Source of the DNA: an uncultured virus (IMG/VR IMGVR_UViG_2061766007_000136)
Taxonomy: Duplodnaviria; Heunggongvirae; Uroviricota; Caudoviricetes
Length of the DNA stretch: 64,000 nt
IMG/VR virus record: IMGVR_UViG_2061766007_000136
Direction: 5' to 3' (one strand)
The notes beneath the pieces are model-generated. The model was not told the origin of the DNA, did no database searches, and saw nothing but the letters and a program-made list of their open reading frames with translations. The translations under genes were made by a program, and so were the position numbers. Shown piece by piece: positions 67-63,694 of this stretch; position 1 is the stretch's first letter; each line of letters opens with the position of its first letter.

Positions 67-239
67 TTATTTTGGAAAATGGGCATTATATAGAAGTCAA
101 GGGAATTATGGACAAGAAGGCAAGGCGCAAGCTGGACTGGTTTCCATATCCAATCGAAGTATGGGGGGCGAAGGAAATGAAACCATATCTCGAATACATG
201 GAACAGAAGTATGGAAAAGACTGGAAAGACAAGTTCTGA
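66..239 (+). pseudogene. 3' fragment of a PD-(D/E)XK nuclease gene with no start and no PD motif
   Basis: Frame 3 reads IILENGHYIEVKGIMDKKARRKLDWF...PYLEYMEQKYGKDWKDKF*, aligning with the C-terminus of 47106-48104 (YVEIKG...YLNYVIKKYGKNF); in-frame stop at 57-59. Confidence 0.6.
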
Positions 240-27600: not shown

Positions 27601-28240
27601 TTGTACCCAGATGTTCGTACTTATCGCGGATGTAAAGCATTCACGGGAATACGATGTCAAAACGAGGGCGTATGTCCAGTCCGTCCTCATGGACGGAATC
27701 GACTTTATCAACAAATGCTGGAGTTGTGACTATACTTCTCTTCTTCCCGACAAGTTATGGGCGCAGGGCATCAACCTTGGTTTTTCAGGCGGTGATTCCG
27801 TCATGTGCATCGAGTACGACATCGAAAGCATTTGCGAACGAATCAAGCTTTTGAAACTGATAATGAATTCCATTCCTATGCGTTTTGCTGTTGGAGCTGG
27901 TGAATGGACGTTGAGGTATCTTGACAAGGATATCAATTATCAGGACGGAAGCGCATTCTGGATGGCGCGTGAAATGATGAACTACTGCAAAGACCATAAT
28001 CGTGAGCTGTGCTTTTCGCCTTGTAACCACAGTAATTTGGAACAAGATACGGCTCATAAACTAGACTTAATTGACAAGTTGCATTCCACCAAGGAACTCG
28101 TTGACATGGCGGGATTCGTTCTCAGTGAAGAAGCATACAAGAAAGTGTGGGCAAACTGGAATGCATTCATAAAAATACTTACTTATCATGAAGGAATTGA
28201 AAATGTCTCTAGATACAATGAAAACAACTCTTGGCGATAG
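27578..28240 (+). CDS. SatD-like protein
   Basis: LIADVKHSR, GGDSV, RFAVGAG, DGSAFWMAR. Confidence 0.7.
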   Translation: MEPCRNYDCTQMFVLIADVKHSREYDVKTRAYVQSVLMDGIDFINKCWSCDYTSLLPDKLWAQGINLGFSGGDSVMCIEYDIESICERIKLLKLIMNSIPMRFAVGAGEWTLRYLDKDINYQDGSAFWMAREMMNYCKDHNRELCFSPCNHSNLEQDTAHKLDLIDKLHSTKELVDMAGFVLSEEAYKKVWANWNAFIKILTYHEGIENVSRYNENNSWR

Positions 28241-28985
28241 GATGAAACAGTACGAGGCTGAGTCGGAGAAGTACGGTTGCAAGGATATGAAGGCACCCGT
28301 GGTCATCCGTCTAGACGGAAGTTCGTTCCACACGTGGGTGAAGAAGGCTGGATGCGTCAAGCCGTTCGACAATCGGATGATTGACTGCATGAAGCTCACT
28401 GCGCTCGACCTGTGCAATGGCATTTCATCCTGCGTGATGGGGTTCGTCCAGTCGGACGAGATTTCCCTTGTCCTCCGCAACGACAAGTCGAGTGATTCTG
28501 AACCGTGGTTCGGCAACAGGATGCAGAAGCTCTGCTCCACGTCTGCTTCCATGTGGGGATGCCACTTCAACAGCCACACAAGGGAGATTTTCGGTGAGGA
28601 CGTGCCTTTCGCATACTGCGATTCCCGCGTCATCTACCTGCCCAACAGGGACGAAGTTTACAACTGCTTGCTGTGGAGGCAGAGGGACTGCATCAGGAAC
28701 TCGATTTCTGGTCAGGCTCAGGCTTACTTCTCCGCGAAGGAATTGAACAAGAAGAACAGCGACGTGATGCTGGCGATGCTCCGCGAGTCTGGTCAGGATT
28801 GGGAACTCCTTCCGACGTGCAAGAAGTATGGCTCGCTCATCCACAAGAAAACGACTGTCGGTGATTACAACGGGACTCCTTTCACAAGGGGGACGTTCTT
28901 CATCGACGATGAATTCGGGAAATTGACCCGCGAGATATTCGACGGGGCATATGATTTTGTAAAAGAGGAATTGAAGAAAATTTAA
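28203..28985 (+). CDS. thg1: tRNA-His guanylyltransferase (Thg1-like 3'-5' polymerase)
   Basis: RMKQYE, VIRLDGSSFH, QSDEISL, WFGNRMQK, DSR, WRQRDCIRNSI. Confidence 0.93.
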   Translation: MSLDTMKTTLGDRMKQYEAESEKYGCKDMKAPVVIRLDGSSFHTWVKKAGCVKPFDNRMIDCMKLTALDLCNGISSCVMGFVQSDEISLVLRNDKSSDSEPWFGNRMQKLCSTSASMWGCHFNSHTREIFGEDVPFAYCDSRVIYLPNRDEVYNCLLWRQRDCIRNSISGQAQAYFSAKELNKKNSDVMLAMLRESGQDWELLPTCKKYGSLIHKKTTVGDYNGTPFTRGTFFIDDEFGKLTREIFDGAYDFVKEELKKI

Positions 28986-29082: not shown

Positions 29083-30927
29083 ATGGAAGAAAATATTAAA
29101 AAACAAGTAATAGATTTCATGGATGGAAGAAAGCTTTCTGGAGGAATTATAACTCAATTGAAAAAAAGAAAGTATGAATTATTTAAAATAATAGAAAAAG
29201 AATCTAAAGAAAAAGGCTATAAAAGAATTACATATTTTCTTGATGAAGAATTAAATCACCCAGAACATAAAAAATGTAAAATTTGTGGAAAAGAATTATC
29301 ATACGAACAATCTTTTGTTCGTAAAATTGTCTATTGTTCTAATCGTTGTGCCACACAAGATAAAGAATTGATTGCAATACGTTCAAATGTTTTTAAGAAA
29401 AAATATGGAAAAGATAATGCTGAAGGTCATTCATTAATAATGAAGAAAAAAGAAGAAACTTCAATGAAACATTATGGAACAAAGCATCCAAATCAAAATA
29501 AAGAACAATTGGCATTAATACAGCAAACATTAATGAATAAGTATGGAGTAACTAATGCTAGTCAGATTGATGGTGTTCAAGAAAAAGTAGAACAAACAAA
29601 TTTAAAAAGATTTGGAGTTAAGAGACCACAAATTTTACAATCATTAAAAGATAAAACAAAAGAAACAAATATAGAAAGATATGGTGGTATTGCTCCTGCT
29701 TGTAACGAAAATATTAAATTAAAAATGCAACAAACTTGTTTAGATAGATATGGAGTTAAAAATGCATTTCAAAGTGAAGAAAAAAAGAAAAAAATACGTG
29801 AAACAAATAAATTAAAATATGGAGCAGAGCATTTTCAACAATCAGAAATATTTTTGAGACCAATTTTTGAAAAAAGAATTGAAAAGTTATCAAAATATAT
29901 GATTCCTTTATTTACATTTGAAGAATATATGCAATTTGGAAGCGGACATTCTTATAAATGGAAATGCTTAAAATGTGGAAAAGAATTTGAACAATGTTAT
30001 TATGGAAATTCGGAAAAAGTTGGTTCAATTATAATTCCTCGTTGTTGCTATTGTCATCCAATACAAGAATTCCGTTCCGATGGAGAAAAAGAATTATTTT
30101 CTTATGTGACTACAATTTATACTGGAACAATTATTGAAAACGATACAACAATTTTAAATGGATATGAATTAGATATTTATATCCCAGATAAAAAAGTAGC
30201 AATAGAATTTAATGGATTATATTGGCATTCAGAAGAACAAGGAAAAGATAGAAATTATCATTTGTGGAAAACAAAAAAATGTTTTGAAAAAGGAATTCAT
30301 TTAATTCATGTCTTTGAAGATGAGTGGCAATATAATAAAAAATATGTATGTAATAAAATACAGCAATTATTGTGTGAAAATAATTTAAGTATTGAAACAT
30401 ATCAAATAAAGAAACTTTCTACTCAAGAAGGAAATGAATTTTTATCAAAATATACTTTAAGCAAAAATACTTATTCATTAATATACTATGGATTTTTTGT
30501 TAATACACAATTAATTGCAGTTATTTCTTTTAATCATACAAAATATAATAAAAAATTTCAATGGCAATTATCAAAATATGCAATAATTGCAGGATATTCA
30601 TCTGAGCTTGTATTTAAATTACTTTTTAATACTTTTCTTTGTGATGAAAATCCACTTTCAATTATTGCTTACATTAATAATAGATATGATGATGGATGTG
30701 AATTAAAGGTATGTGATTTTAAAAAGGTTAATGATACAAAACCAAATTATTTTTTATTTAAAGGAACAAAAAAGCTTTCTAGATATGATTGTAATCAGAA
30801 AAAATTAATAAAACAATTACTTGGTAATAAATATGATTCTAATTTTAATGGAGAAGATAATCTTTCCTTAAACGGATGGATGAAAATTTATGATTGTGGT
30901 TCATCAGTATTTATATGGAGAAAGTAA
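29083..30927 (+). mobile_element. Free-standing homing-endonuclease-like gene (KYG repeats + PD-(D/E)XK domain)
   Basis: Very AT-rich; repeated T..K/RYGV units, Zn ribbons, ELDIYIPDKKVAIEFNGLYWH, C-terminal IYDCG. Confidence 0.85.
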
Positions 30928-30929
30928 AA

Positions 30930-31568
30930 ATGATATCTCAACCAATTCCAGACTGTTTTAAAAAATGCAGATTAATTGCTATTGATTGTGAAACGACAGG
31001 CCTAAATATTAAGTACAACACGATTATAGAAATCGGTTGTGTCGAATATAACAACGGAGAACTGAAGGAATTTCCAGACAAGAAAAGCGGTGAAGTCAAA
31101 TACGGTTTCACCAAGATGTTCGGTGGCGGTCATTCGTCTATGTACCTCGTGCGCAAGATTCATAAGATAAAGGATAATGAAAGGCATAATCTCAAGACGT
31201 TCAAGCAACTTGCACAGGGTATTTCAGAATATCTGAGCAATTCCATCATTGTCACGCACAACGGGAATTCCTTCGACCTCCCGATGATTCAGCAGAAGCT
31301 GACGGAGGCGGGGTTTCCGTTGCAGAATTACAAGTCCATCGACACGCTCCAACTCGTCCGCAAAATGCGGAAGAAGGAGGGTGTCGAGGACGACGATGAA
31401 AAAAGGGTCGGCGGTCGCAACACGCTCGGCAATCTCTGCAAGGAATTCGGGTTGACCTACGGCGGTGAAAGTGGTGACAAGGCTCACCGTGGATTCGAAG
31501 ATGCCCAAGCCTGTCTTGAACTCCTGTTCTACCTTGTCAATAATGGAAAAGTTGAAGTGTCATTGTAA
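30930..31568 (+). CDS. DnaQ/DEDDh 3'-5' exonuclease
   Basis: IDCETTG, HNGNSFD, DTL, AHRGFED. Confidence 0.92.
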   Translation: MISQPIPDCFKKCRLIAIDCETTGLNIKYNTIIEIGCVEYNNGELKEFPDKKSGEVKYGFTKMFGGGHSSMYLVRKIHKIKDNERHNLKTFKQLAQGISEYLSNSIIVTHNGNSFDLPMIQQKLTEAGFPLQNYKSIDTLQLVRKMRKKEGVEDDDEKRVGGRNTLGNLCKEFGLTYGGESGDKAHRGFEDAQACLELLFYLVNNGKVEVSL

Positions 31569-44816: not shown

Positions 44817-45650
44817 ATGAAAAGCCTGTCCGACAACAAGACCTATCTTGAAAAGATGCGCAACGCCTTCGCTGACAAGGCGTGGTTTATGAAGACCATT
44901 CCGACCGACGTGAAGACGGTCATAGACTTCGGCTCTGCCGACAATTCTTTCATACGGTACATGAAGGAATCCCGTCCCGACCTGCGCTACATCGGCATCG
45001 ACAACAACCCATACTTCCTAAAACTGTCCAAGGAGCAGGGGCAGGAATGCTACGAATCCTTGACGCAGATGAAAGAAAACATGGACTACGACAAGGGCAC
45101 GACGTTGCTTGTCCTGAACAGCGTTCTCCATGAAGTCTATTCCTACGGCTATGCTGAGAATTTCTGGGACGAAATCCTCGCGCTGTCCCCAAGATACGTC
45201 GTCGTCCGCGACATGTACGCTAGCAACTGCGACAGCTTCGGTTCCATAGAATTCAGGGCGATGGAGTCCATCATCGAGAAGTCCTTCTCCATGAACGAGC
45301 ACTACAAGGACTTCATCGAGAAGTGGGGGCGGGTGCGCGACGGCTACACTGCAATCCACTTCCTTCTCAAATACTTCTACGATGAAAACTGGACACGGGA
45401 AGTGGCGGAAAACTACATCCCGTTCACGTACCGAGAACTGTACAGGAAAATCCGAGAAGTCGGCTACAATGTCACCCACAGCGAATTCTACCTGCTTCCG
45501 TTTCTGAAGAACAAATGGCTCAAGGATTTCAAATGCGAAGGCACGTCGTTCAGCGAAAGCGAGAAGGCGAATGCGGTCATGCGCGGATTCATCACAAGAA
45601 TCCTGACACACATGAAAATTTCTCTTGTAAAAGAAGAAAATTTTGATTGA
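44817..45650 (+). CDS. class I SAM-dependent methyltransferase
   Basis: VIDFGSAD, YIGID, NSVLHEVYSY, VVVRD. Confidence 0.8.
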   Translation: MKSLSDNKTYLEKMRNAFADKAWFMKTIPTDVKTVIDFGSADNSFIRYMKESRPDLRYIGIDNNPYFLKLSKEQGQECYESLTQMKENMDYDKGTTLLVLNSVLHEVYSYGYAENFWDEILALSPRYVVVRDMYASNCDSFGSIEFRAMESIIEKSFSMNEHYKDFIEKWGRVRDGYTAIHFLLKYFYDENWTREVAENYIPFTYRELYRKIREVGYNVTHSEFYLLPFLKNKWLKDFKCEGTSFSESEKANAVMRGFITRILTHMKISLVKEENFD

Positions 45651-45654
45651 CAGC

Positions 45655-45682
45655 TTGACAAAAAAGAAAAACAAGTCATATT
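45655..45682 (+). promoter_or_regulatory. Recurrent promoter TTGACA-N16-CATATT upstream of the ncRNA block
   Basis: Matches consensus; no SD-led ORF follows for ~700 nt. Confidence 0.7.
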
Positions 45683-45735
45683 AATAGTGTAAAACAAAAA
45701 CAACGGCTCTTTAAAAACAGTAACAGTACGATTTC

Positions 45736-45801
45736 AAAGACGATTACAGCAACCCACCAGCAAAAGAATTGTAATCTTTAGAAGCTAGAAACATCGTCTT
45801 G
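45736..45801 (+). ncRNA. ACAGCAA-motif hairpin RNA, copy 1
   Basis: AAGACGAT/ATCGTCTT stem, ACAGCAACC, internal AAAGA-ATTGTAA-TCTTT hairpin. Confidence 0.55.
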
Positions 45802-45808
45802 TTCAAGT

Positions 45809-45879
45809 AAAGACCCAAACAGCAACCTCACTTGATAATCCGCACCAAATCGCAGATACCTATCGAAAATTGGGTCTTG
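45809..45879 (+). ncRNA. ACAGCAA-motif hairpin RNA, copy 2
   Basis: AAGACCCAA/TTGGGTCTT stem, ACAGCAACC; compensatory changes versus copy 1. Confidence 0.55.
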
Positions 45880-45894
45880 ACATTTAAAAAAGAT

Positions 45895-46163
45895 TTCCCT
45901 CCATATCCGAAAACAAGGGGAGGGAATATGAGACCGCCCACACTTGCCCTTCATTACAAGAGCCATCTACGGATGACTTGGAAGGCAGTGAGAAACATGG
46001 GTGCGTGGCGAATCCTAGGAAAGTAACCACGGGGTGTTGGTCGTTCACTTCGGCAACAACGACCAGCTAGCCAGTGCTAGAAGCTGGCTCGGAGACATTA
46101 TCGCAGAAATGGCTTTTTAAATCATTCAGACATGCAAAAACGCATGAGCCGAAGGATGTCTCT
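45895..46163 (+). ncRNA. candidate multi-helix structured RNA
   Basis: About six helices, including C(UACG)G and C(UUCG)G loops. Confidence 0.5.
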
Positions 46164-46199
46164 TAAAATCACGCGACACATGGTTGCCACTCTGCGTCC

Positions 46200-46282
46200 C
46201 TCCCAGTGGTGGAATTGGCATACACGACGCACAGGCTTGCGTCCCTAGAAATAGGTTGAAGGTTCGAATCCTTCCTGGAGCT
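46200..46282 (+). pseudogene. degenerate type II (Leu/Ser-like) tRNA
   Basis: TGGTGGAATTGGCATACAC D-arm, GAAGG-TTCGAAT-CCTTC T-arm, long variable arm; aberrant anticodon loop, imperfect acceptor stem, no CCA. Confidence 0.65.
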
Positions 46283-46290
46283 TCTTCTTT

Positions 46291-46390
46291 CCCGATACTG
46301 AACTCATCATGCAAATCATTGTTTTAGATTACCTCCCTCTCCTCCCCTAAAAATAAAACAGCATGGTGATTCAGCATCGGGCATTTTTTT
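46291..46390 (+). other. long hairpin with C-rich loop followed by T-tract
   Basis: CCCGATACTGAACTCATCATGC pairs with GCATGGTGATTCAGCATCGGG. Confidence 0.55.
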
Positions 46391-46399
46391 AAAACGACG

Positions 46400-46993
46400 A
46401 TGGACGGAAAAGCATACGCAAACAGGAAGAAGATTGAAGACAGACCAGAAGGAGACTTCTACGCCACGCCACGAAGTCTGATGTGGGTGGCTGAAAGCCT
46501 CTTCAAGGATGTCTTCTGGATTTCCATGCCAATCCTAGACCCCTGCTGTGGAAACGGGGTGATGGGGCAGGAGTTGTCGAAGATGGGTTTTCGCGTTGAT
46601 GAAAACGACCTCTATAAAAGGGACGGGGTTGATTATCTCCAAAATGACTGGAACCAGCGTCAAGTCGTCATGAACCCTCCGTTTTCGCAATGGGATGCCT
46701 TCGTGGAAAAGGCGAAATCCCATGCGAGCAAGGTCATGGCGATTGGAAGGCTGAACTACCTTTCCACCCAGTCCAGATACCAGTCGGATATTTGGAAGCA
46801 TCTGAAGTCCGTCAACGTCTTCACGCGGTATGTGGACTACCAGACACCTGAAAGGTACGACGGATGCTTCTGCGTCGGGGCGATGGCGACTGGGTGGTTC
46901 GTATGGGACATGTTTTACGACGGATGCCCGATGCTTTCGTTTCTGGACGTGCAGAAATACGCCACGTTAGGCAACTTTAAAAAGAAGAAATAA
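46400..46993 (+). CDS. DNA adenine methyltransferase (short NPPF type)
   Basis: DFYATP, ILDPCCGNG, MNPPF. Confidence 0.88.
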   Translation: MDGKAYANRKKIEDRPEGDFYATPRSLMWVAESLFKDVFWISMPILDPCCGNGVMGQELSKMGFRVDENDLYKRDGVDYLQNDWNQRQVVMNPPFSQWDAFVEKAKSHASKVMAIGRLNYLSTQSRYQSDIWKHLKSVNVFTRYVDYQTPERYDGCFCVGAMATGWFVWDMFYDGCPMLSFLDVQKYATLGNFKKKK

Positions 46994-47038
46994 TAAAATA
47001 CTTATAATAGGCTTTATTATCTGATAAAAAACTTAAAT

Positions 47039-47073
47039 GGAGGGCGATATTGCTCGGCAGCAATCACGGTCTT
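47039..47073 (+). repeat. orphan 5' half of tRNA-Ser (direct repeat of 48125-48159)
   Basis: GGAGGGCGATATTGCTCGGCAGCAATCACGGTCTT, 33/35 identical to the downstream copy. Confidence 0.9.
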
Positions 47074-47105
47074 AATTTTATCTTCCTTCATAAAGGAGAT
47101 ATTTT

Positions 47106-48104
47106 ATGAATAACAAAATATTTACTTGTAAATATTGTGGTAAAAATTATAATGATAAAGGAAATTTAGCATTACATGAAGATGTTTGTATAAAAAATGT
47201 TAATGCTAATCATTATGAATCATCTTGTAAATATTGTGGAAAAATTTTTACAAAGGGAACAAAGGCTAATATTTTTGCTGCCACAAAAGCACATGAAATA
47301 AGTTGTAGTAAAAATCCTAATCATATTAATTACACTTGTAAAAAGTGTGGATTAACGTGTAAAACGAAAAACGGATTATTACAACATTCTTTAAAATGTA
47401 TTGGACCTAAGAAAAAAAATGAACATACTACTTGTATATTTTGTGGAAAAGAAATATTAAATGTTGGTTCATTAATATTTCATGAAAATTATTGTAAACT
47501 AAATCCTAATAAAAAAACATATTTACCTCATATTAAAAAATCCATTAAAGGTCATCCTGCATGGAATAAAGGATTGACAAAGAAAACAGATAAAAGAATA
47601 CAACTATTTTCAGAAAAAGCGAAAGAGAAAAATAAAAGGCTAAAAGAAAAAGGGAAAGCTATAGGAATAGCTTCAACACCTGAAAAAGAGCAAGAAAGAA
47701 GAAAGAAAATTTCAGAAACAATGAAAAAAAATCAGAATTCTGGTGGAAAAAGACAAGGTTCTGGAAAAGGTAAAAAAGGATGGTATAAAGGTTATTTTTG
47801 TGATTCTTCTTGGGAATTAGCTTTTGTAATTTATAATATAGACCATAATATTTCTTTCAACAGAAATTATCAAGGATTTGAATATGAGTACAAAGGAGAA
47901 AAACATAAATTTTATCCTGATTTTATTATGAGTGATAAAACATATGTTGAAATAAAAGGAGCAATGACAGAACAAAATAAAATAAAAATTGAAACATTTA
48001 AAGATAAACTTTATGTGATTGGAAAAAAAGAAATTTCCATATATCTTAATTATGTAATTAAGAAATATGGAAAAAATTTTATTGATTTATACGAAAAAAA
48101 ATAA
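47106..48104 (+). mobile_element. Homing-endonuclease-like gene (Zn-finger repeats + PD-(D/E)XK)
   Basis: AT-rich; four CxxCG...H...C units, AWNKGLTK, CDSSWEL, FYPDF, VEIKG. Confidence 0.85.
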
Positions 48105-48124
48105 TTTATTTACACCATATTATT

Positions 48125-48211
48125 GTAGGGCGATATTGCTCGGTAGCAATCACGGTCTTGAAAATCGTTGGCTCCTCACGGAGTGGGGTTCGACACCTCC
48201 GCCCTCCGCCA
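48125..48211 (+). tRNA. tRNA-Ser(UGA) with non-canonical 8/4 fold
   Basis: 8-nt acceptor strands, 6-bp D stem ATTGCT/AGCAAT, ACGGT-CTTGAAA-ATCGT, variable arm GCTCC/GGAGT, 4-bp T stem with TTCGACA, G73, encoded CCA. Confidence 0.88.
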
Positions 48212-48225
48212 TAAGGATTACAATC

Positions 48226-48738
48226 ATGCATTACAATTTCAATCAGGACATCGTTGATGGAGAAGAAGGCGAGAAACGGGTCGCCAGCCTTCTCTGCGAC
48301 AAATGCGACGCAATCATCTCGGTCAAGCACAACAACGACAACAAGTACGACTGGAAAATCGACTTGGACAACGGAGATTCAATAACGGTCGAAGTGAAGA
48401 GCGACATGATGATTGGACGCACTGGGAACTTCGCCTTCGAGACTCGGTGCAGAGGCAAGGATTCTGGCATCAATGTCACGCAGTCCGACTTGTTCGTGGT
48501 ATATTGCCATGAGAACAACAAGGAACACGCCTATGCATTCAGGACGGAATACGTCAGGAATCTGGTGAAGTACGGGAATTACTCGCTTGTAAGCGGTGGG
48601 GACAAGGACAAGGACGGGAATCCAGTCACGGAGATGGTGCTTGTCCCGAAGGACGACGTTTACAGGGACATGAGCGACATAACTGTGAAAGCCAACATCG
48701 ACTTGAGGAAGTTCGCAAAGGAATGCAGGAAGGTATAA
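48226..48738 (+). CDS. PD-(D/E)XK nuclease-family protein
   Basis: GEEGEKRV, YDW, VEVKSD, TGNFAFE, SGINVTQSD. Confidence 0.8.
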   Translation: MHYNFNQDIVDGEEGEKRVASLLCDKCDAIISVKHNNDNKYDWKIDLDNGDSITVEVKSDMMIGRTGNFAFETRCRGKDSGINVTQSDLFVVYCHENNKEHAYAFRTEYVRNLVKYGNYSLVSGGDKDKDGNPVTEMVLVPKDDVYRDMSDITVKANIDLRKFAKECRKV

Positions 48739-48825
48739 TAAATAAGTTCTTTTATAGAACTAATTCACAATGTATGAATGTTAAAAGTACGAAAGTAAAG
48801 ACAAAAAACAAAAAGAGGTAAAAAA

Positions 48826-49797
48826 ATGAAGAAAATGATTCTGTTCGTTGTGTGTGCAATGATTTGCACTGTGGCTGTGGCTCAGGAAGTCGCGCAGTCC
48901 TACGCCGTGTTCGACTTCAAGGTGACGTTCAAGAGAATCGAACCTGTCCTATCCACGTTCAAGGCAACAGGTGTCAACTCGAAGCACATCTCCTACAATC
49001 TCGTTACCGACAGCATCAAGGGCTACCTCGTGGTTCCTGAATGCTGTGACGCTATCGTTGCTGGCGCATGCACGTCCTGCGGTGATATCACGCCGTTCGG
49101 TTGCGACGGCATCGGTGAATCGCTTTCCTACCTGTACATCGCCCGTGGTGGCGAGAGGCAGGAGAAGACGACGCTGGTGAAGGTCAAAGCCGACAATATC
49201 GTGGCTACGGTCTTCGGCGTTGGCGCGAATTCCGCCTATATCGGAACCGACAAGGAAGACGAAGTGTTCAAGAAGCTGAGAAAATCGTCCCTGTCGATGA
49301 CATGCATCTTCCCTGAAGGCATGTTCGAATCCCGTCCGTTCCCTGTAAGTGGTGCCGACACCACTGGCATGCGTGAACTCGACTACGGCTATCTCGGTCT
49401 GACCTGCTTGAACGGCGTTGTGATGTTCTCTGGCTACGGCACCGCCACGCCAGTCGTGAAGTCCTCAGCCACCTACGGCTACTGCTCGTCCTCGGTCACG
49501 TCCATCAAGTGCCTCCGCATCAGCTCCATCAGCGGTACGCTGACAGGCATGTTCAACTACGGCAACACGGCGTTGTGCCTTACGTGCGACGAATTCTCCA
49601 TCACGAATCCGTGCGCGTATTTCACTCCCGAATACCAGTCACCTGTGACGGGTACATGGACGCTCCGCTACAACACGTCCTTGTCTGGAAAGAAGATTAC
49701 GGACGAAACCGAGCTTGAGGCGTTGCTCATGAAGAACTTGAACAAGAAACAGGTTTTCGATGTCGAATTCATGATGGATTCCAAAGAAGAAGAATAA
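48826..49797 (+). CDS. secreted Cys-rich beta protein
   Basis: Signal peptide MKKMILFVVCAMICTVAVA; many Cys; GC-rich codons. Confidence 0.8.
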   Translation: MKKMILFVVCAMICTVAVAQEVAQSYAVFDFKVTFKRIEPVLSTFKATGVNSKHISYNLVTDSIKGYLVVPECCDAIVAGACTSCGDITPFGCDGIGESLSYLYIARGGERQEKTTLVKVKADNIVATVFGVGANSAYIGTDKEDEVFKKLRKSSLSMTCIFPEGMFESRPFPVSGADTTGMRELDYGYLGLTCLNGVVMFSGYGTATPVVKSSATYGYCSSSVTSIKCLRISSISGTLTGMFNYGNTALCLTCDEFSITNPCAYFTPEYQSPVTGTWTLRYNTSLSGKKITDETELEALLMKNLNKKQVFDVEFMMDSKEEE

Positions 49798-49952: not shown

Positions 49953-51008
49953 ATGAGTTTCAACGAGATTCTAATCAAGAACACGGTTTTCAAGGAGCGC
50001 ATCACCAATGTCGCTGGTGTCGCTGTCGTACCAGACTACACCGCACCGCAGGGCACGTTGCTTGAGCGGTTGCACGGCAATCCGAACATCCATGAGAAGG
50101 CGTTCGGCGAAGACGGACGGTACTCGTCCTTCAATTTCACCCGCGACGCTTTCAACAACGGTACGTGGAATGACGAGACCATCAAGGCTCGCGGGCTGTT
50201 CATCGACAACAAGAGCAACCGAGTCGTGGCTCGCGGGTTCGAGAAGTTCTTTGGCTACAAGGAGCGTCAGTTCAACACCGATGAATTCCTGAAGCAGAAT
50301 TTGGTCTATCCCGTCACGGCGTACACCAAGTACAATGGATTCCTCGGCATTCTCGGCTACGGCGACGAGGGGCTTCTGTTCTGCTCCAAGTCCACCATCG
50401 ACGGCGAGTTCGCGGAATACTTCAAGACCATCTTCAAGGATGGTGGCTACGACGAGGAGAAGTTGCTCAAGTACATGCGTGAGAACAACGTCGGATTAGT
50501 GTTCGAGGTCATCGACCCCGTGAACGACCCGCACATCGTCGAGTACGACAAGAGCGAAATCATCCTGCTCGACGTAATCTCCTTGCAGGAGAAGTGGAAG
50601 GACTTGCCCTACGACGAGCTGGTTGCTTTCGGCAAGGACTTCGGCTTCAAGGTCAAGGAGAAGTTCCGCGAATTCAATGACTGGGAGACCCTGCACGAGT
50701 TCCTGAACCAAGTCGCTGGCGACACCAAAACCCGAATCGAAGGCTACGTCATGGTGGACGCACAGGGCTACCAATTCAAGCTCAAGGGAGCGTGGTACCG
50801 CAAGTGGAAGGACTTGCGCACGTTCAAGCAACAGATTGGCAACGGTCATGGAATCAAGAAGTTCTCGTCCGTCCAGTCCCCCTTGAAGATTGCGTTCATA
50901 GGCTGGGCGGTCAAGAAGGGGAAGGACTACTGCGCGGAGCGGAGCATCATCCAGTTGCGCAACGAGTTTGAGAAGGAGCATGTCTTCACGGAGACAAAGG
51001 AGGACTGA
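49953..51008 (+). CDS. RNA ligase (T4 Rnl1-like)
   Basis: ARGLF, ARGFEKFF, KYNG motif I, FEVIDP, EGYV motif IV, FKLK motif V. Confidence 0.88.
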   Translation: MSFNEILIKNTVFKERITNVAGVAVVPDYTAPQGTLLERLHGNPNIHEKAFGEDGRYSSFNFTRDAFNNGTWNDETIKARGLFIDNKSNRVVARGFEKFFGYKERQFNTDEFLKQNLVYPVTAYTKYNGFLGILGYGDEGLLFCSKSTIDGEFAEYFKTIFKDGGYDEEKLLKYMRENNVGLVFEVIDPVNDPHIVEYDKSEIILLDVISLQEKWKDLPYDELVAFGKDFGFKVKEKFREFNDWETLHEFLNQVAGDTKTRIEGYVMVDAQGYQFKLKGAWYRKWKDLRTFKQQIGNGHGIKKFSSVQSPLKIAFIGWAVKKGKDYCAERSIIQLRNEFEKEHVFTETKED

Positions 51009-62323: not shown

Positions 62324-63694
62324 ATGGAAAAGACCGAATACAATCAAATTCTGCATGTCGCGCAATTGCTGAAGGACAACGGGGGTCGCGCACTGTTGGT
62401 CGGCGGTTGCGTCCGTGACTCCATTCTTGGACTTGACTGCAAGGACTATGACATGGAAGTCTACGGGCTGTCTATGGACAGAATCCGAGAGGTTCTGTCC
62501 AAGGAGTACGCTCTTGATTTCGTCGGTGCGTCGTTCGGTGTGTTGAAAGTCCACGGTCTCGACGTGGACATCGCGTTGCCCCGCGTGGAGAACAAGACCA
62601 GTTCTGGTCACAAGGGCTTCGATGTCCAATTCATCCCCGACCTGAGCTACGAGGACGCAGCGAGCCGTCGTGATTTTACAATCAACGCCATCATGCGCGA
62701 CCCCCTGACCGATGAGGTCATCGACCCTTGGAACGGTATGAAGGACTTGAAGAAGGGCGTGATTCGCCATGTCTCCGAACACTTCGCCGAAGACCCGTTG
62801 CGGGTGCTCCGAGCCATGCAGTTCGCGTCCCGATTTGATGCGGATGTCGCCGACGAAACCGTGAAGCTTTGCTCCACGCTGTCGCAGGGCGAACTGGCTC
62901 AGGAACGCATCGCTACCGAATGGGAGAAGCTCCTGCTGAAAGGCAGACGACCCTCCAAGGGCTTGCGCTTCCTCAAGGCTTGCGGATGGATTGACAACTA
63001 CCCAGAGCTTAAAGCTCTGGTCGGGTGCAAGCAGGAACCACGCTGGCATCCCGAAGGAGACGTGTGGGAGCACACGTTGCATTGCCTCGACGCTGGCGTT
63101 GCGTTGCGCAAGGGCGACTTCGTTGAAGACCTGATTCTCATGCTTGCAGTCCTGTGCCATGACTTCGGCAAACCCGCCACGACGGAAGTGGACGAGGCTC
63201 GCGGTCGCATCATCAGCCACGGTCACGACGAGGCGGGTGTCGAACCAGCGAGGGCGTTCATCAGGCGCATGTGGAGCATGACGGAGCTTGACGACGTGTT
63301 GCCTCTTGTCAGACGGCACATGTTACCCATGACGTTCATTAGCACCAAGGTCTCCGACAAGGCGTACCGTCGTCTGTCGATGGAGGTCAGGAGCATGGGC
63401 TTGCTCGCGGATGTCGCCGAATGCGACTTGAAGGGCGTGGATGTCCCGAAGGAGAGCCTCGAACGCGGTCTATCAGACCTCGCAGAGTTCAGACGGCGTT
63501 CGGAGTCCCTGCACATTTCGACCGAGAAGCCGAAGCCCATCGTGTTGGGACGGCATCTCATCGCCCGTGGGATGAAGCCTGGTCCCAAGATGAAGCCCAT
63601 CCTTGACAAGTGCTTCGATGCGCAACTCGACGGCGAATTCATCGACCTCGAAGGCGGTCTGAAATACCTCGACGGTTTCCTTGAGAGTGTTTGA
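62324..63694 (+). CDS. cca: CCA-adding tRNA nucleotidyltransferase with HD domain
   Basis: LVGGCVRD, DYD, RRDFTINA, EDPLRVLRAMQF, HPEGDVWEH, LCHDFGK. Confidence 0.92.
   Translation: MEKTEYNQILHVAQLLKDNGGRALLVGGCVRDSILGLDCKDYDMEVYGLSMDRIREVLSKEYALDFVGASFGVLKVHGLDVDIALPRVENKTSSGHKGFDVQFIPDLSYEDAASRRDFTINAIMRDPLTDEVIDPWNGMKDLKKGVIRHVSEHFAEDPLRVLRAMQFASRFDADVADETVKLCSTLSQGELAQERIATEWEKLLLKGRRPSKGLRFLKACGWIDNYPELKALVGCKQEPRWHPEGDVWEHTLHCLDAGVALRKGDFVEDLILMLAVLCHDFGKPATTEVDEARGRIISHGHDEAGVEPARAFIRRMWSMTELDDVLPLVRRHMLPMTFISTKVSDKAYRRLSMEVRSMGLLADVAECDLKGVDVPKESLERGLSDLAEFRRRSESLHISTEKPKPIVLGRHLIARGMKPGPKMKPILDKCFDAQLDGEFIDLEGGLKYLDGFLESV

What the first reader, a model, noticed from the sequence alone, without database searches (positions are those of the whole stretch)
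47039..48211. Endonuclease gene inserted in a tRNA anticodon loop, carrying a replacement 5' half of the tRNA
Seen: a tRNA 5' half (47039-47073) stops inside the anticodon (..ACGGT-CTT|). An AT-rich Zn-finger PD-(D/E)XK gene follows, then a second 5' half (33/35 identical) joined to the 3' half. Only the upstream half pairs perfectly with the 3' acceptor strand (GGAGGGCG/CGCCCTCC); the contiguous copy has a U2.C mismatch, so the upstream half looks like the original. Only ~32 nt precede and ~20 nt follow the ORF, leaving no room for a group I ribozyme. Inference: a non-intronic mobile endonuclease that targets tRNA genes and rescues them with a diverged 5' half, possibly excisable via the repeat. 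A more speculative alternative is that the two original halves are joined by the phage RNA ligase/Pnkp.
Basis: partly seen in the sequence, partly recalled or inferred. Interest (0 to 1): 0.85.

Follow-up and report, generated by a model that had tools for sequence, protein, structure and literature searches.

The report
Nuclease cassette splitting a phage tRNA gene
A selfish DNA-cutting-enzyme gene sits inside the anticodon loop of a rumen phage's serine tRNA gene and is followed by a spare front half of that tRNA, so an unbroken gene survives without any intron; many relatives of the enzyme show a similar layout.

Summary

**What is there:**
- A 1.05-kb AT-rich cassette (GC 0.24, flanks 0.47-0.50) lies in the anticodon loop of an (8/4)-type tRNA-Ser(UGA) gene.
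- It encodes a 332-aa protein with four C2HC zinc fingers and a C-terminal PD-(D/E)XK nuclease domain.
- The native 5' half (47039-47073/75) is left upstream as a relic. A second 5' half (33/35 identical) follows the gene in register with the 3' half.
- No ribozyme is detectable.

**It is not an assembly error.** Contigs of another run of the same sample cover both junctions, and a roughly 4%-diverged contig from an independent sample covers the upstream one.

**The layout recurs in the family.**
- 72 of 83 viral loci encoding relatives hold tRNAs.
- 30 of 61 dereplicated loci carry an anticodon-loop relic motif before the gene.
- 21 of 61 have a tRNA-Ser(UGA), or a sequence like one, right after it.
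- In L069 a whole tRNA-Ile is split around nuclease plus replacement tRNA.

**What is special here:** a chimeric tRNA with a U2.C71 mismatch.

Cleavage and mobility are inferred, not shown. This scan noted the layout before on other DNA. My paper searches found no description. The closest analogues are T4 SegB and fungal mitochondrial mobile endonuclease genes.

The parts
47039..47075 (+). Relic: orphan 5' half of the native (8/4) tRNA-Ser(UGA) gene. It comprises the acceptor 5' strand, the D arm, the anticodon-stem 5' strand and the loop up to position 34 (47073). It may run to position 36 (47075) with G35 changed to A.
   Evidence: 33/35 identical to 48125-48159. Pairs 8/8 with the 3' acceptor strand. 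Joined in silico to 48160 onward, it gives a tRNA-Ser(UGA) by ARAGORN. Family junctions lie after position 36.
47076..47105 (+). AT-rich leader of the cassette with a ribosome-binding site (AAGGAG, 8 nt before the ATG). It starts at 47074 if the relic ends at position 34.
   Evidence: Sequence read directly. Too short for a ribozyme, and no Rfam intron match at E up to 10.
47106..48104 (+). Gene of the 332-aa modular endonuclease, intact.
   Evidence: ORF. PHROG 15137 and 945 'endonuclease'. 854 relatives with E up to 0.001. AlphaFold2 model with mean pLDDT 84.
47127..47495 (+). Four C-x2-C...H-x3-C zinc fingers (residues 8-28, 41-67, 78-98, 110-130), the presumed sequence-reading DNA-binding array.
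   Evidence: Pfam zf-C2H2 E 3.7e-8. Direct repeats D1-D3 of the finger codons. The best Foldseek matches are tandem C2H2 arrays bound to DNA, such as CTCF at E 3.6e-6.
47553..47735 (+). Basic helical linker (residues about 150-210) with two NUMOD3-like repeats. The name is recalled; one relative carries Pfam PF07460.
   Evidence: Helices 163-181 and 192-208 in the model. Direct repeat D6. PF07460 is listed for P0102. Weak DUF6466 match.
47769..48101 (+). C-terminal PD-(D/E)XK nuclease domain (residues 222-332). Motif residues are E237 (47814), D272 (47919), E282 (47949) and K284 (47955).
   Evidence: E237, P271, D272 and K284 are invariant and E282 nearly so in 27 sequences. The family profile matches T7 endonuclease I, 1m0d, at E 1.5e-4 over the PD...ExK stretch. 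Fold matches over residues 222-320: Bax1 Z 6.2, TnsA 5.9, I-Bth0305I 5.5, VRR-NUC 5.2, Vsr 5.0.
48105..48124 (+). 20-nt AT-rich spacer between the stop codon and the tRNA.
   Evidence: Sequence.
48125..48160 (+). Second 5' half (tRNA positions 1-36), which lies on the cassette side of the insertion. It differs from the relic at position 2 (U for G) and position 20 (U for C).
   Evidence: In relatives this place holds the front of a clearly foreign tRNA.
48161..48211 (+). 3' part of the tRNA gene: anticodon-stem 3' strand, long variable arm, T arm, acceptor 3' strand, G73 and an encoded CCA. Presumed native.
   Evidence: Its acceptor strand matches the relic perfectly but not the adjoining 5' half.
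48125..48211 (+). The uninterrupted, chimeric (8/4) tRNA-Ser(UGA) gene: 8-bp acceptor stem with a U2.C71 mismatch, 6-bp D stem with a tetraloop, long variable arm, short T stem.
   Evidence: ARAGORN. Rfam tRNA-Sec model 50.2 bits, gathering score 47. Minimum-energy fold.

Best explanation
A free-standing homing-endonuclease cassette was inserted at the DNA level into the anticodon loop of the phage's tRNA-Ser(UGA) gene, after position 34-36.

**Make-up of the insertion.** It consists of a 30-32-nt leader with a ribosome-binding site, the gene of a zinc-finger plus PD-(D/E)XK nuclease, a 20-nt spacer and a second copy of tRNA positions 1-34/36. This second 5' half abuts the resident 3' half in register. 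The phage therefore keeps one uninterrupted tRNA gene, and nothing has to be spliced or ligated. The displaced native 5' half remains upstream as a dead relic.

**Expression (inferred).** Transcription from the tRNA's own upstream region would read relic, nuclease mRNA and tRNA together. RNase P would free the tRNA at 48124/48125.

**Mobility (inferred from the family layout and from what is established for free-standing homing endonucleases such as T4 SegB and SegF).**
- The enzyme cuts nuclease-free alleles of the tRNA gene in or near the anticodon loop.
- The break is repaired from a cassette-bearing genome.
- The relic serves as the left homology arm and the tRNA 3' part as the right arm.
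- The cassette and its 5' half are copied in.

**Origin of the mismatch.** The carried 5' half (U2, U20) then meets the recipient's own 3' half (C71). That would explain the U2.C71 mismatch in the working copy, and the perfect fit of the relic.

**Shown:** the anatomy, the foreign composition, the nuclease fold and motif, the recurrence of the layout, and the stability of the junction in an independent sample.

**Inferred:** cleavage, its site, homing, and whether the second 5' half arrived with the cassette (my odds about 0.6) or arose by duplication on the spot (about 0.4).
For: **Anatomy and composition:**

**No ribozyme:** an Rfam scan of 46400-48800 at E up to 10 gives only the tRNA and three chance-level hits.

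**Nuclease:**
- E...PD...ExK residues are invariant or nearly so in 27 sequences.
- The family profile matches T7 endonuclease I at E 1.5e-4.
- PD-(D/E)XK fold matches with Z 5-7 over residues 222-320.
- Tandem DNA-binding zinc fingers.

**Family habitat:**
- 320 viral loci encode relatives.
- Of the 83 loci fetched hold tRNAs. In all but three loci the tRNAs listed nearest the gene are on its strand.

**Layout in the 61 dereplicated loci, the window included:**
- 30 have a '...CTTGA/T-run' relic motif in the 260 nt around the ORF start.
- 37 have a tRNA or tRNA-like sequence starting -40 to +75 nt from the end of the protein match.
- 26 of these are Ser and 21 are Ser(UGA).
- 16 have both the relic motif and Ser(UGA).
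- Enrichment: the 8-mer relic motifs occur in 25 of 61 loci, against 0.038 expected per 260 nt from the rest of the loci.

**Clear individual cases:**
- L069: native tRNA-Ile 5' half 1982-2018, nuclease ORF, complete AT-rich tRNA-Ile 2694-2767, native 3' half 2768-2806. The joined halves give a 75-nt tRNA-Ile(GAU).
- L032: orphan tRNA-Ser(UGA) 5' half ending at A36, nuclease, then a different complete tRNA-Ser(UGA) overlapping the stop codon.
- L029, L044, L056: orphan 5' halves of tRNA type, two Ser-like (anticodon loop UGA) and one with a Phe-type (GA-) loop.
- L002, L039, L064, L065: the ORF's end or the bases right after it run into a tRNA 3' remnant.

**Real and inherited:** contigs of runs X1 and X2 cover both junctions, and a 96%-identical contig of an independent sample (X3) carries the upstream junction.

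**Native site:** a relative with an 83%-identical methyltransferase (L084) has intact tRNA-Ser genes right after that gene and no nuclease.
Against: - No nuclease-free allele of this particular tRNA was found. Exact-pattern scans of viral, metagenome and genome collections gave 0 hits. The flanking proteins gave one relative. So presence/absence polymorphism at this site is not shown.
- The two 5' halves are 94% alike and both GC-rich, while the nuclease gene is AT-rich. In the other clear cases (L029, L032, L044, L056, L069) the carried tRNA is plainly foreign to the relic. A cassette from far away would not be expected to carry so native-looking a half. Either it has cycled among close relatives, or the half was duplicated in place.
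- The restored tRNA keeps an intact anticodon stem-loop. Why the enzyme would spare it is unexplained: only two substitutions and the 5' flank differ.
- 31 of 61 dereplicated loci lack the Ser-type relic motif, and 24 of 61 have no tRNA detected right after the gene. The layout is therefore common but not universal.
- The motif search was designed after I had seen the motif by eye.
- Nuclease activity, cut site and mobility are untested.
Confidence: 0.82

Rival explanations
1. Duplication on the spot, and a dead end. The nuclease gene alone was captured at a break in the anticodon loop. Repair, for instance by template switching to a sister genome copy, duplicated the resident 5' half. Both halves are native and have since picked up two or three point changes. 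The cassette does not carry a tRNA half from genome to genome and may no longer be mobile.
For: - The halves are 33/35 identical and of the phage's own GC-rich (8/4) type, while the gene between them has GC 0.24.
- In relatives the tRNA behind the nuclease is clearly foreign to the relic, so the window differs from them.
- Some such founding event is needed anyway to explain how an AT-rich gene came to be followed by a GC-rich half.
Against: - The repeat begins exactly at tRNA position 1 (plus one shared T) and ends in the anticodon loop. That is expected if homology between two tRNA alleles sets its limits, and a coincidence for a repair duplication.
- The change that breaks pairing (U2.C71) lies in the working copy, while the unused relic keeps the perfect fit.
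- The same junction occurs in a 4%-diverged relative, and the ORF is intact with all motif residues.
Confidence: 0.13
2. RNA-level solution. The upstream half is a working 5' exon or split-tRNA half. It is joined to the 3' half by an unrecognised ribozyme, or by the phage's RNA ligase after cleavage, giving a perfectly paired tRNA.
For: - The relic plus the 3' half folds 7 kcal/mol better than the contiguous copy.
- The window encodes a T4 Rnl1-type RNA ligase, a Thg1-like enzyme and a CCA-adding enzyme.
- The break lies in the anticodon loop, where (recalled) bacterial group I tRNA introns and anticodon nucleases act.
Against: - No intron family matches at E up to 10, and only 32 + 20 non-coding nt are available.
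- A complete contiguous tRNA gene is present, so no joining is needed.
- In relatives the upstream stumps are often decayed to about 10-25 nt, or belong to a tRNA different from the one downstream, so they cannot be working exons.
- If the relic runs to position 36, its anticodon reads UAA, not UGA.
Confidence: 0.03
3. Assembly artefact: two strains, or a repeat collapse, produced a false join.
For: The feature is bounded by a short repeat, and the window comes from a metagenome.
Against: - The repeat (36 nt) is shorter than typical reads. The junction letters at 47073/47074 exist in no intact allele, so they must be in the reads.
- Separately assembled contigs of a second run of the same sample cover both junctions.
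- An independent, diverged sample carries the upstream one.
Confidence: 0.01

Closest known systems
T4/T6 SegB, a free-standing GIY-YIG homing endonuclease in the phage tRNA gene cluster (PMC2330249, abstract read; PMC13096335, passages read)
   Same: - A free-standing nuclease gene among phage tRNA genes.
- It cuts inside tRNA genes of relatives.
- It spreads itself and neighbouring tRNA genes by break repair.
- No intron is involved.
   Different: - SegB is GIY-YIG and recognises the T-psi-C motif. Here the nuclease is PD-(D/E)XK with zinc fingers, and the insertion point is the anticodon loop.
- In the parts I read, SegB is described as lying between tRNA genes. It is not described as lying inside one with an orphan half and a replacement half.
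Mobile endonuclease ORFs of fungal mitochondria that carry a replacement C-terminus of the invaded gene, such as Allomyces macrogynus atp6 and Glomus atp6, atp9, cox2 and nad3 (PMC3630166, passages read)
   Same: - Intron-free invasion of an essential gene.
- The element brings a copy of the part it displaces.
- The native part stays behind as an unused relic.
- The result is a hybrid gene.
   Different: - Those are protein genes in organelles, with LAGLIDADG or GIY-YIG enzymes, and the 3' end is replaced.
- Here it is an RNA gene in a phage, the 5' half is replaced, and the relic lies upstream.
I-Ssp6803I, a PD-(D/E)XK homing endonuclease encoded in the group I intron of a cyanobacterial tRNA-fMet gene (recalled, not read here)
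   Same: A PD-(D/E)XK-type nuclease tied to a tRNA anticodon loop.
   Different: - It sits in a self-splicing intron, and no ribozyme is present here.
- It is a small single-domain protein. Here the protein is modular, with zinc fingers.
- No sequence match to it was seen in my searches (one search lists T7 endonuclease I only).
Integrase-driven islands and prophages that insert into tRNA genes and carry a replacement 3' end (textbook knowledge, recalled)
   Same: The inserted element restores the tRNA gene with its own copy of the displaced part.
   Different: - Those use a tyrosine recombinase acting on att sites and replace the 3' end.
- No integrase is present here. The enzyme is a nuclease and the 5' half is replaced.
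(8/4) tRNA-Ser / allo-tRNA group (PMC5389517, abstract and passages read)
   Same: - The invaded tRNA has the 8-bp acceptor stem, short T stem, 6-bp D stem with tetraloop and long variable arm.
- The paper reports (8/4) tRNA-Ser in phages and in bovine rumen bacteria. The runs that hold this window are labelled bovine gut metagenome.
   Different: The parts of the paper I read say nothing about nuclease insertions. Here the acceptor stem has a mismatch at 2:71.

Membership tests
PD-(D/E)XK nuclease superfamily (T7 endonuclease I-like branch) | Catalytic motif E ... PD ... (D/E)xK | tested here: met
   E237, P271, D272 and K284 are invariant and E282 is at least 90% conserved in 27 aligned family members. 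The motif aligns with the PDF...VExKG stretch of T7 endonuclease I.
PD-(D/E)XK nuclease superfamily (T7 endonuclease I-like branch) | Restriction-endonuclease-like alpha/beta core fold | tested here: met
   AlphaFold2 model with pLDDT 93-98 over residues 230-330. VIA-align matches over residues 222-320 are almost all PD-(D/E)XK nucleases: Bax1 Z 6.2 (rmsd 3.6, 81 aligned), TnsA 5.9, I-Bth0305I 5.5, VRR-NUC 5.2, Vsr 5.0. The Z values are middling, so this rests on the motif as well.
PD-(D/E)XK nuclease superfamily (T7 endonuclease I-like branch) | Significant sequence match to a characterised member | tested here: met
   The family profile matches PDB 1m0d (T7 endonuclease I) at E 1.5e-4 over 49 residues. 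Pfam PF05367 is precomputed for several relatives. The window's own protein does not reach any Pfam nuclease family.
Free-standing homing endonuclease gene | Site-specific double-strand cleavage of the allele that lacks the gene | not testable with these tools
   Needs purified protein and a synthetic uninterrupted allele.
Free-standing homing endonuclease gene | Presence/absence polymorphism at one site among related genomes | tested here: inconclusive
   No uninterrupted allele of this tRNA was found. One relative (L084) has intact tRNA-Ser genes and no nuclease after the same methyltransferase gene, but they are other isoacceptors.
Free-standing homing endonuclease gene | Foreign composition, no ribozyme or intein around it, recurrent association with one kind of conserved target | tested here: met
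   GC 0.24 against 0.47-0.50. No intron model matches. 72 of 83 loci hold tRNAs, and 21 of 61 dereplicated loci have a tRNA-Ser(UGA), or a sequence like one, right after the gene.
Group I intron in a tRNA anticodon loop | Ribozyme core (P3-P9) detectable, and room for it | tested here: not met
   cmscan of 46400-48800 at E up to 10 finds no intron family. Only 32 and 20 non-coding nt flank the ORF.
Group I intron in a tRNA anticodon loop | The interrupted gene lacks a contiguous copy, so splicing is needed | tested here: not met
   A contiguous tRNA gene is present at 48125-48211.
Gene-part-replacing mobile endonuclease ORF (fungal mitochondrial type) | Order: native gene part, endonuclease ORF and carried duplicate of the displaced part, giving a hybrid gene plus an unused relic | tested here: met
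   Relic 47039-47075, ORF 47106-48104, second 5' half 48125-48160 fused to the 3' half. This is the mirror image of the mitochondrial cases, and here in an RNA gene.
Gene-part-replacing mobile endonuclease ORF (fungal mitochondrial type) | The carried part is of foreign origin (more diverged from relatives than the relic is) | tested here: inconclusive
   Only 2 of 35 positions differ, and no outgroup allele is available. In relatives the carried tRNA is clearly foreign.
(8/4) tRNA-Ser (allo-tRNA group) | 8-bp acceptor stem with a 4-bp T stem, 6-bp D stem with tetraloop, long variable arm | tested here: met
   The minimum-energy fold shows an 8-pair acceptor stem (one pair open at 2:71), a 6-bp D stem with a 4-nt loop and a 5-bp variable arm. 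The T stem is 4 bp with a 7-nt loop by hand, or 5 bp with a 5-nt loop in the fold. The best Rfam model is tRNA-Sec, above its gathering score.

The most novel reading that the evidence does not exclude
The two substitutions in the carried 5' half (G2U and C20U) may be immunising changes. They would keep the cassette's own zinc-finger nuclease from re-cutting the restored tRNA gene, and the phage would pay for them with a U2.C71 acceptor-stem defect at what (recalled) is a serine identity position. The phage's own tRNA-repair set, above all its Thg1-like 3'-5' polymerase at 28188-28985, might then rebuild the 5' end against the 3' strand, as (recalled) in mitochondrial tRNA 5' editing. A selfish element would thus be tolerated because the host phage can edit the damaged tRNA. 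More broadly, such cassettes would be vehicles that shuffle tRNA halves between phages and create chimeric tRNAs.
Probability: 0.08. Interest if true: 0.88.

Novelty: new variant of a known kind. Interest (0 to 1): 0.7.

Why it matters
Homing endonucleases are thought to enter essential genes by hiding in self-splicing introns or inteins, or else to sit harmlessly between genes. This locus, with its many relatives, shows a third route for an RNA gene. The element lands in the anticodon loop and brings its own copy of the displaced part, so no splicing is needed.

If the inferred mobility holds, three things follow:
- It would explain orphan tRNA halves and pseudo-tRNAs in phage tRNA arrays.
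- It would make these cassettes a force in the turnover and chimerisation of phage tRNAs, which are now linked to escape from tRNA-cutting host defences (PMC13096335, passages read).
- It would add a family of modular zinc-finger plus PD-(D/E)XK enzymes with long, tRNA-gene-sized targets.

The window is an unusually clean case. Relic and replacement differ at only two positions, so an enzyme test on the two near-identical substrates could map what the nuclease reads.

Tried and rejected
- **Group I or other intron.** An Rfam scan at E up to 10 over 46400-48800 found none.
- **Assembly error.** Rejected from contigs of three samples or runs.
- **Excised or empty form.** The contigs of X1-X4 show no joint from 47073-47075 to 48160-48162. 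Contigs drop rare variants, so this says nothing about absence.
- **RNA evidence.** An RNA-library contig (X4; 47775-48128; no differences) stops 4 nt into the tRNA, near the expected RNase P site. It is one contig of one study and may be DNA carry-over, so I do not use it as evidence of transcription or processing.
- **Search for an uninterrupted allele or close relatives.**
  - A 21-nt anticodon-arm pattern gave 0 hits in viral, metagenome and genome contigs.
  - A 33-nt 5'-half pattern with one N gave 0 hits in genome and viral contigs.
  - The downstream ORF gave no relatives in viral contigs.
  - The methyltransferase gave none in viral contigs and one in metagenome contigs (L084).
  - No whole genome is held for the window.
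- **First scan for flanking duplications in relatives.** I aligned the sequence upstream of each gene against the sequence downstream. It found none except the window, and I nearly concluded that the window was unique. It failed because in relatives the relic and the carried tRNA differ in sequence. Matching flanks to a tRNA library and reading the upstream regions revealed the relics.
- **Sigma-70 promoter and terminator scan of 46300-48900.** 12 promoter-like sites against 7.0 +/- 3.1 in shuffles, none placed informatively.
- **NCBIfam.** No family above cut-off for four members.
- **Rfam on 45600-46420.** Nothing for the tRNA-Leu-like stretch.
- **Phage record collection.** The DNA matches only about 113 nt of the nuclease domain in Prevotella Lak-B megaphages at 79%. 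The protein matches Lak phages, uncultured huge phages and PhaxI-like Escherichia and Salmonella phages at 27-50%. No relative of the host phage itself was found there.
- **Literature.** Seven full-text searches found no description of a nuclease gene inside a tRNA anticodon loop with a replacement half. Subscription-only papers are not covered.
Full report
**1. The observation**

- ARAGORN finds one tRNA in the 64-kb window, tRNA-Ser(UGA) at 48125-48211.
- Its first 35 bases recur at 47039-47073 with two differences. With a shared T at -1 the repeat is 34/36. The differences are position 2 (G upstream, U downstream) and position 20 in the D loop (C upstream, U downstream).
- Between the copies lie 32 nt of leader with an AAGGAG ribosome-binding site, a 999-nt ORF (47106-48104, 332 aa) and 20 nt of spacer.
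- The 1.05-kb insert has GC 0.24, against 0.47 and 0.50 in the flanks and 0.44 for the window.
- The upstream copy pairs 8/8 with the 3' acceptor strand. In the contiguous tRNA, U2 faces C71 and stays open in the minimum-energy fold (-28.2 kcal/mol, against -35.2 for upstream half plus 3' half).

**2. It is not an artefact**

- One 11,104-nt contig of run X1 covers 46300-48900 without a difference. X1 may be the source of this DNA.
- Run X2 is from the same sample. Its contigs 46300-47307 and 47307-48900 cover both junctions.
- Run X3, from another sample and study, has a 698-nt contig (46626-47323) with 27 differences. It carries the same order: methyltransferase gene end, half tRNA, start of the nuclease gene.
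- The arrangement is therefore inherited in a lineage about 4% diverged. In that relative the relic has T for C at 47045.
- The listed differences in the nuclease ORF are 9 non-synonymous to 5 synonymous. In the methyltransferase gene they are 3 to 9. The numbers are small, and 3 further differences were not listed.

**3. The tRNA**

- It has an 8-bp acceptor stem, a 6-bp D stem with a tetraloop, a long variable arm and a short T stem. Its best Rfam model is tRNA-Sec (50.2 bits, gathering score 47), although the anticodon is UGA.
- This is the (8/4) tRNA-Ser type. Mukai et al. (PMC5389517, abstract and passages read) report that type from phages and bovine rumen bacteria.
- The runs that hold the window are labelled bovine gut metagenome.

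**4. The protein**

- Residues 8-130 form four Cys-x2-Cys...His-x3-Cys fingers (Pfam zf-C2H2, E 3.7e-8).
- In an AlphaFold2 model (mean pLDDT 84) this part matches tandem DNA-bound C2H2 arrays best (CTCF and others, E down to 3.6e-6).
- Residues about 150-210 are basic helices with an internal repeat.
- Residues 222-332 carry E237, P271-D272, E282 and K284. These are invariant or nearly so in 27 relatives.
- A profile of the family matches T7 endonuclease I over the PD...ExK stretch (1m0d, E 1.5e-4).
- The modelled domain aligns with PD-(D/E)XK nucleases: Bax1 Z 6.2, TnsA 5.9, the I-Bth0305I catalytic domain 5.5, VRR-NUC 5.2, Vsr 5.0. The Z values are middling and are read together with the motif.
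- PHROGs calls it 'endonuclease' (15137, 945). NCBIfam has no family for it.
- The family is large: 854 proteins with E up to 0.001. Most of those listed are 210-245 aa and align only to the C-terminal half to two-thirds of the window's protein, so they lack most of the finger array.

**5. No intron**

An Rfam scan of 46400-48800 at E up to 10 gives only the tRNA and three chance-level hits. The non-coding flanks of 32 and 20 nt leave no room for a ribozyme.

**6. What the relatives show**

*Habitat.*
- A profile search of viral contigs found 320 loci that encode relatives. I studied the best 80 plus 3 from a first search.
- 72 of the 83 loci hold tRNAs. In all but three loci the tRNAs listed nearest the gene are on its strand.

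*A false negative.* My first test for flanking duplications aligned upstream against downstream sequence. It found nothing but the window. That was a false negative. Matching the non-tRNA parts of the loci to a library of their own tRNAs, and then reading the regions before each ORF, showed what it had missed. In many loci the gene is preceded by the stump of a tRNA that ends just after the anticodon ('...GTCTTGA' followed by a T-run).

*Counts after dereplication to 61 loci, the window included.*
- 30 have such a Ser-type relic motif.
- 37 have a tRNA or tRNA-like sequence starting -40 to +75 nt from the end of the protein match.
- 26 of these are Ser and 21 are Ser(UGA).
- 16 have both the motif and Ser(UGA).
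- 8-mer versions of the motif, which exclude true anticodon loops, occur in 25 of 61 loci, against 0.038 expected per 260 nt from the rest of the loci.
- I chose the motif after seeing it, so the enrichment is descriptive.

*Individual cases.*
- **L069**:
  - Bases 1982-2018 are positions 1-37 of a tRNA-Ile(GAU), and 15 nt of leader and the nuclease ORF follow.
  - A complete, AT-rich, different tRNA-Ile(GAU) lies at 2694-2767, overlapping the stop codon.
  - Bases 2768-2806 are positions 37-75 of the first tRNA.
  - Joined in silico, the two outer pieces give a 75-nt tRNA-Ile(GAU).
- **L032:** an orphan tRNA-Ser(UGA) 5' half ending at A36, the ORF, then a different complete tRNA-Ser(UGA).
- **L029, L044, L056:** orphan 5' halves of tRNA type, two Ser-like (anticodon loop UGA) and one with a Phe-type (GA-) loop. 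L029 also has the last 17 nt of a tRNA-Ser behind the replacement tRNA.
- **L002, L039, L064, L065:** the ORF's end or the bases right after it run into a tRNA 3' remnant, namely T arm plus acceptor strand.
- **L001, L002:** the order inside the cassette is reversed, with the junction, then the complete tRNA-Ser(UGA), then the nuclease.
- Many relics are decayed to about 10-25 nt.

**7. Reading of the window**

- The window fits this layout: relic, leader, nuclease, then a tRNA of the same isoacceptor.
- Many family junctions lie after position 36, and the window reads '...CTTAA|TTTT'. L070 reads alike. So the relic probably runs to 47075 with G35 changed to A.
- The window differs from the other clear cases (L029, L032, L044, L056, L069) in one respect. 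Relic and replacement are 94% alike, and the tRNA behind the nuclease is a chimera whose 3' acceptor strand fits the relic and not its own 5' strand.
- **Favoured explanation (about 0.6 within the main reading): homing between close relatives.**
  - The relic of the donor and the 3' part of its tRNA serve as homology arms.
  - The cassette with its own 5' half (U2, U20) is copied into the recipient.
  - The recipient's own 5' half is kept as the relic, and its 3' half (C71) is kept in the gene.
- **Alternative (about 0.4): a duplication on the spot followed by point changes.** An event of that kind is needed at some time anyway, to explain how an AT-rich gene came to be followed by a GC-rich (8/4)-type half.
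- The native place of a tRNA-Ser gene right after the methyltransferase gene is supported by one relative. L084 has an 83%-identical methyltransferase followed by intact tRNA-Ser(GGA) and tRNA-Ser(CGA) and no nuclease.

**8. What is not shown**

- I found no uninterrupted allele of this tRNA, and only one relative of the host phage itself.
- Cleavage, its position and mobility are inferred.
- It is unexplained how the restored gene, with the same anticodon stem-loop, would escape the enzyme. The only differences are the two substitutions and the 5' flank.

**9. Comparison with what is known**

- *Working logic.* The closest match is the mobile endonuclease ORFs of fungal mitochondria. They carry a replacement C-terminus of atp6, atp9, cox2 or nad3 and leave the native end as a relic (PMC3630166, passages read). 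The window is the mirror image, in an RNA gene of a phage.
- *Habitat.* The closest match is T4/T6 SegB, a GIY-YIG enzyme in the tRNA cluster that cuts inside tRNA genes at the T-psi-C motif (PMC2330249, abstract; PMC13096335, passages).
- *Literature.* Seven full-text searches turned up no description of a nuclease gene inside a tRNA anticodon loop with a replacement half.
- *Earlier notes of this scan.* They are unchecked by me beyond what is reported here. They describe the same layout on other DNA, for this nuclease family (e1-5746594, e1-5467289, e1-5708605, e1-5320412) and for GIY-YIG and HNH cassettes. I read them after reaching my own reading.

**10. Verdict**

The RNA-ligase idea is not.
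- I class it as a new variant of a known kind: a free-standing homing endonuclease with gene-part replacement.
- Interest 0.7.

Noticed in passing
window 29083-30927: A second AT-rich island (GC 0.244) holds a 614-aa ORF. It matches PHROG 3339 'homing endonuclease' (E 4e-79), PHROG 559 'HNH endonuclease' and Pfam DUF7487. It lies between the Thg1-like gene and an RNase T / DNA polymerase exonuclease-type gene (30894-31568). A second foreign nuclease gene in the same phage.
   Followed up: partly
window 69-239: A C-terminal fragment (56 aa) of another member of the same nuclease family. It is 37% identical to residues 274-327 (BLASTP E 6e-11), of normal GC, and preceded by in-frame stop codons. 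It looks like a decayed copy. No tRNA was seen next to it.
   Followed up: partly
window about 46196-46283: A tRNA-Leu-like stretch, with D-arm and T-arm matches to phage tRNAs, lies just before the methyltransferase gene. By eye it has a 6-nt anticodon loop. Neither ARAGORN nor Rfam calls it. It may be a dead tRNA.
   Followed up: partly
window 28188-28985, 49953-51008, 62324-63694: A tRNA-mending set: a Thg1-like tRNA-His guanylyltransferase (Pfam Thg1, 96 bits), a T4 Rnl1-type RNA ligase (135 bits) and a CCA-adding enzyme with an HD domain. I did not identify a polynucleotide kinase-phosphatase among the ORFs scanned.
   Followed up: partly
L069 4272-4304: An orphan 5' half (positions 1-33) of tRNA-Ser(GCU) with no nuclease gene. 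It sits 15 nt before a complete tRNA-Ser(GCU). It could be the scar of a lost cassette.
   Followed up: no
L020 and L021, several places: Four to five scattered copies of the last 24-29 nt of a tRNA-Pro(AGG)-like gene in each locus. A repeated tRNA 3' fragment of unknown meaning.
   Followed up: no
60 viral loci plus the window, region before the nuclease ORF: The 8-mer TATAAATA stands between the relic junction and the start codon in 11 of 61 dereplicated loci, against 0.041 expected per 180 nt. From memory it equals the T4 late-promoter consensus. The window's leader lacks it.
   Followed up: partly
window 47106-47820 as seen in run X3: In the 4%-diverged relative the nuclease ORF shows 9 non-synonymous and 5 synonymous listed differences, mostly in the zinc-finger part. 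The neighbouring methyltransferase gene shows 3 and 9. This means relaxed or diversifying selection on the DNA-reading part. The sample is small.
   Followed up: partly
L004, L018, L032, L053, L059, L065, L081: ARAGORN missed tRNA-Ser(UGA)-like genes right after, or in L065 before, the nuclease gene. BLAST to the loci's own tRNAs found four of them, and I saw L032, L053 and L065 by eye. tRNA counts from ARAGORN alone understate the association.
   Followed up: partly
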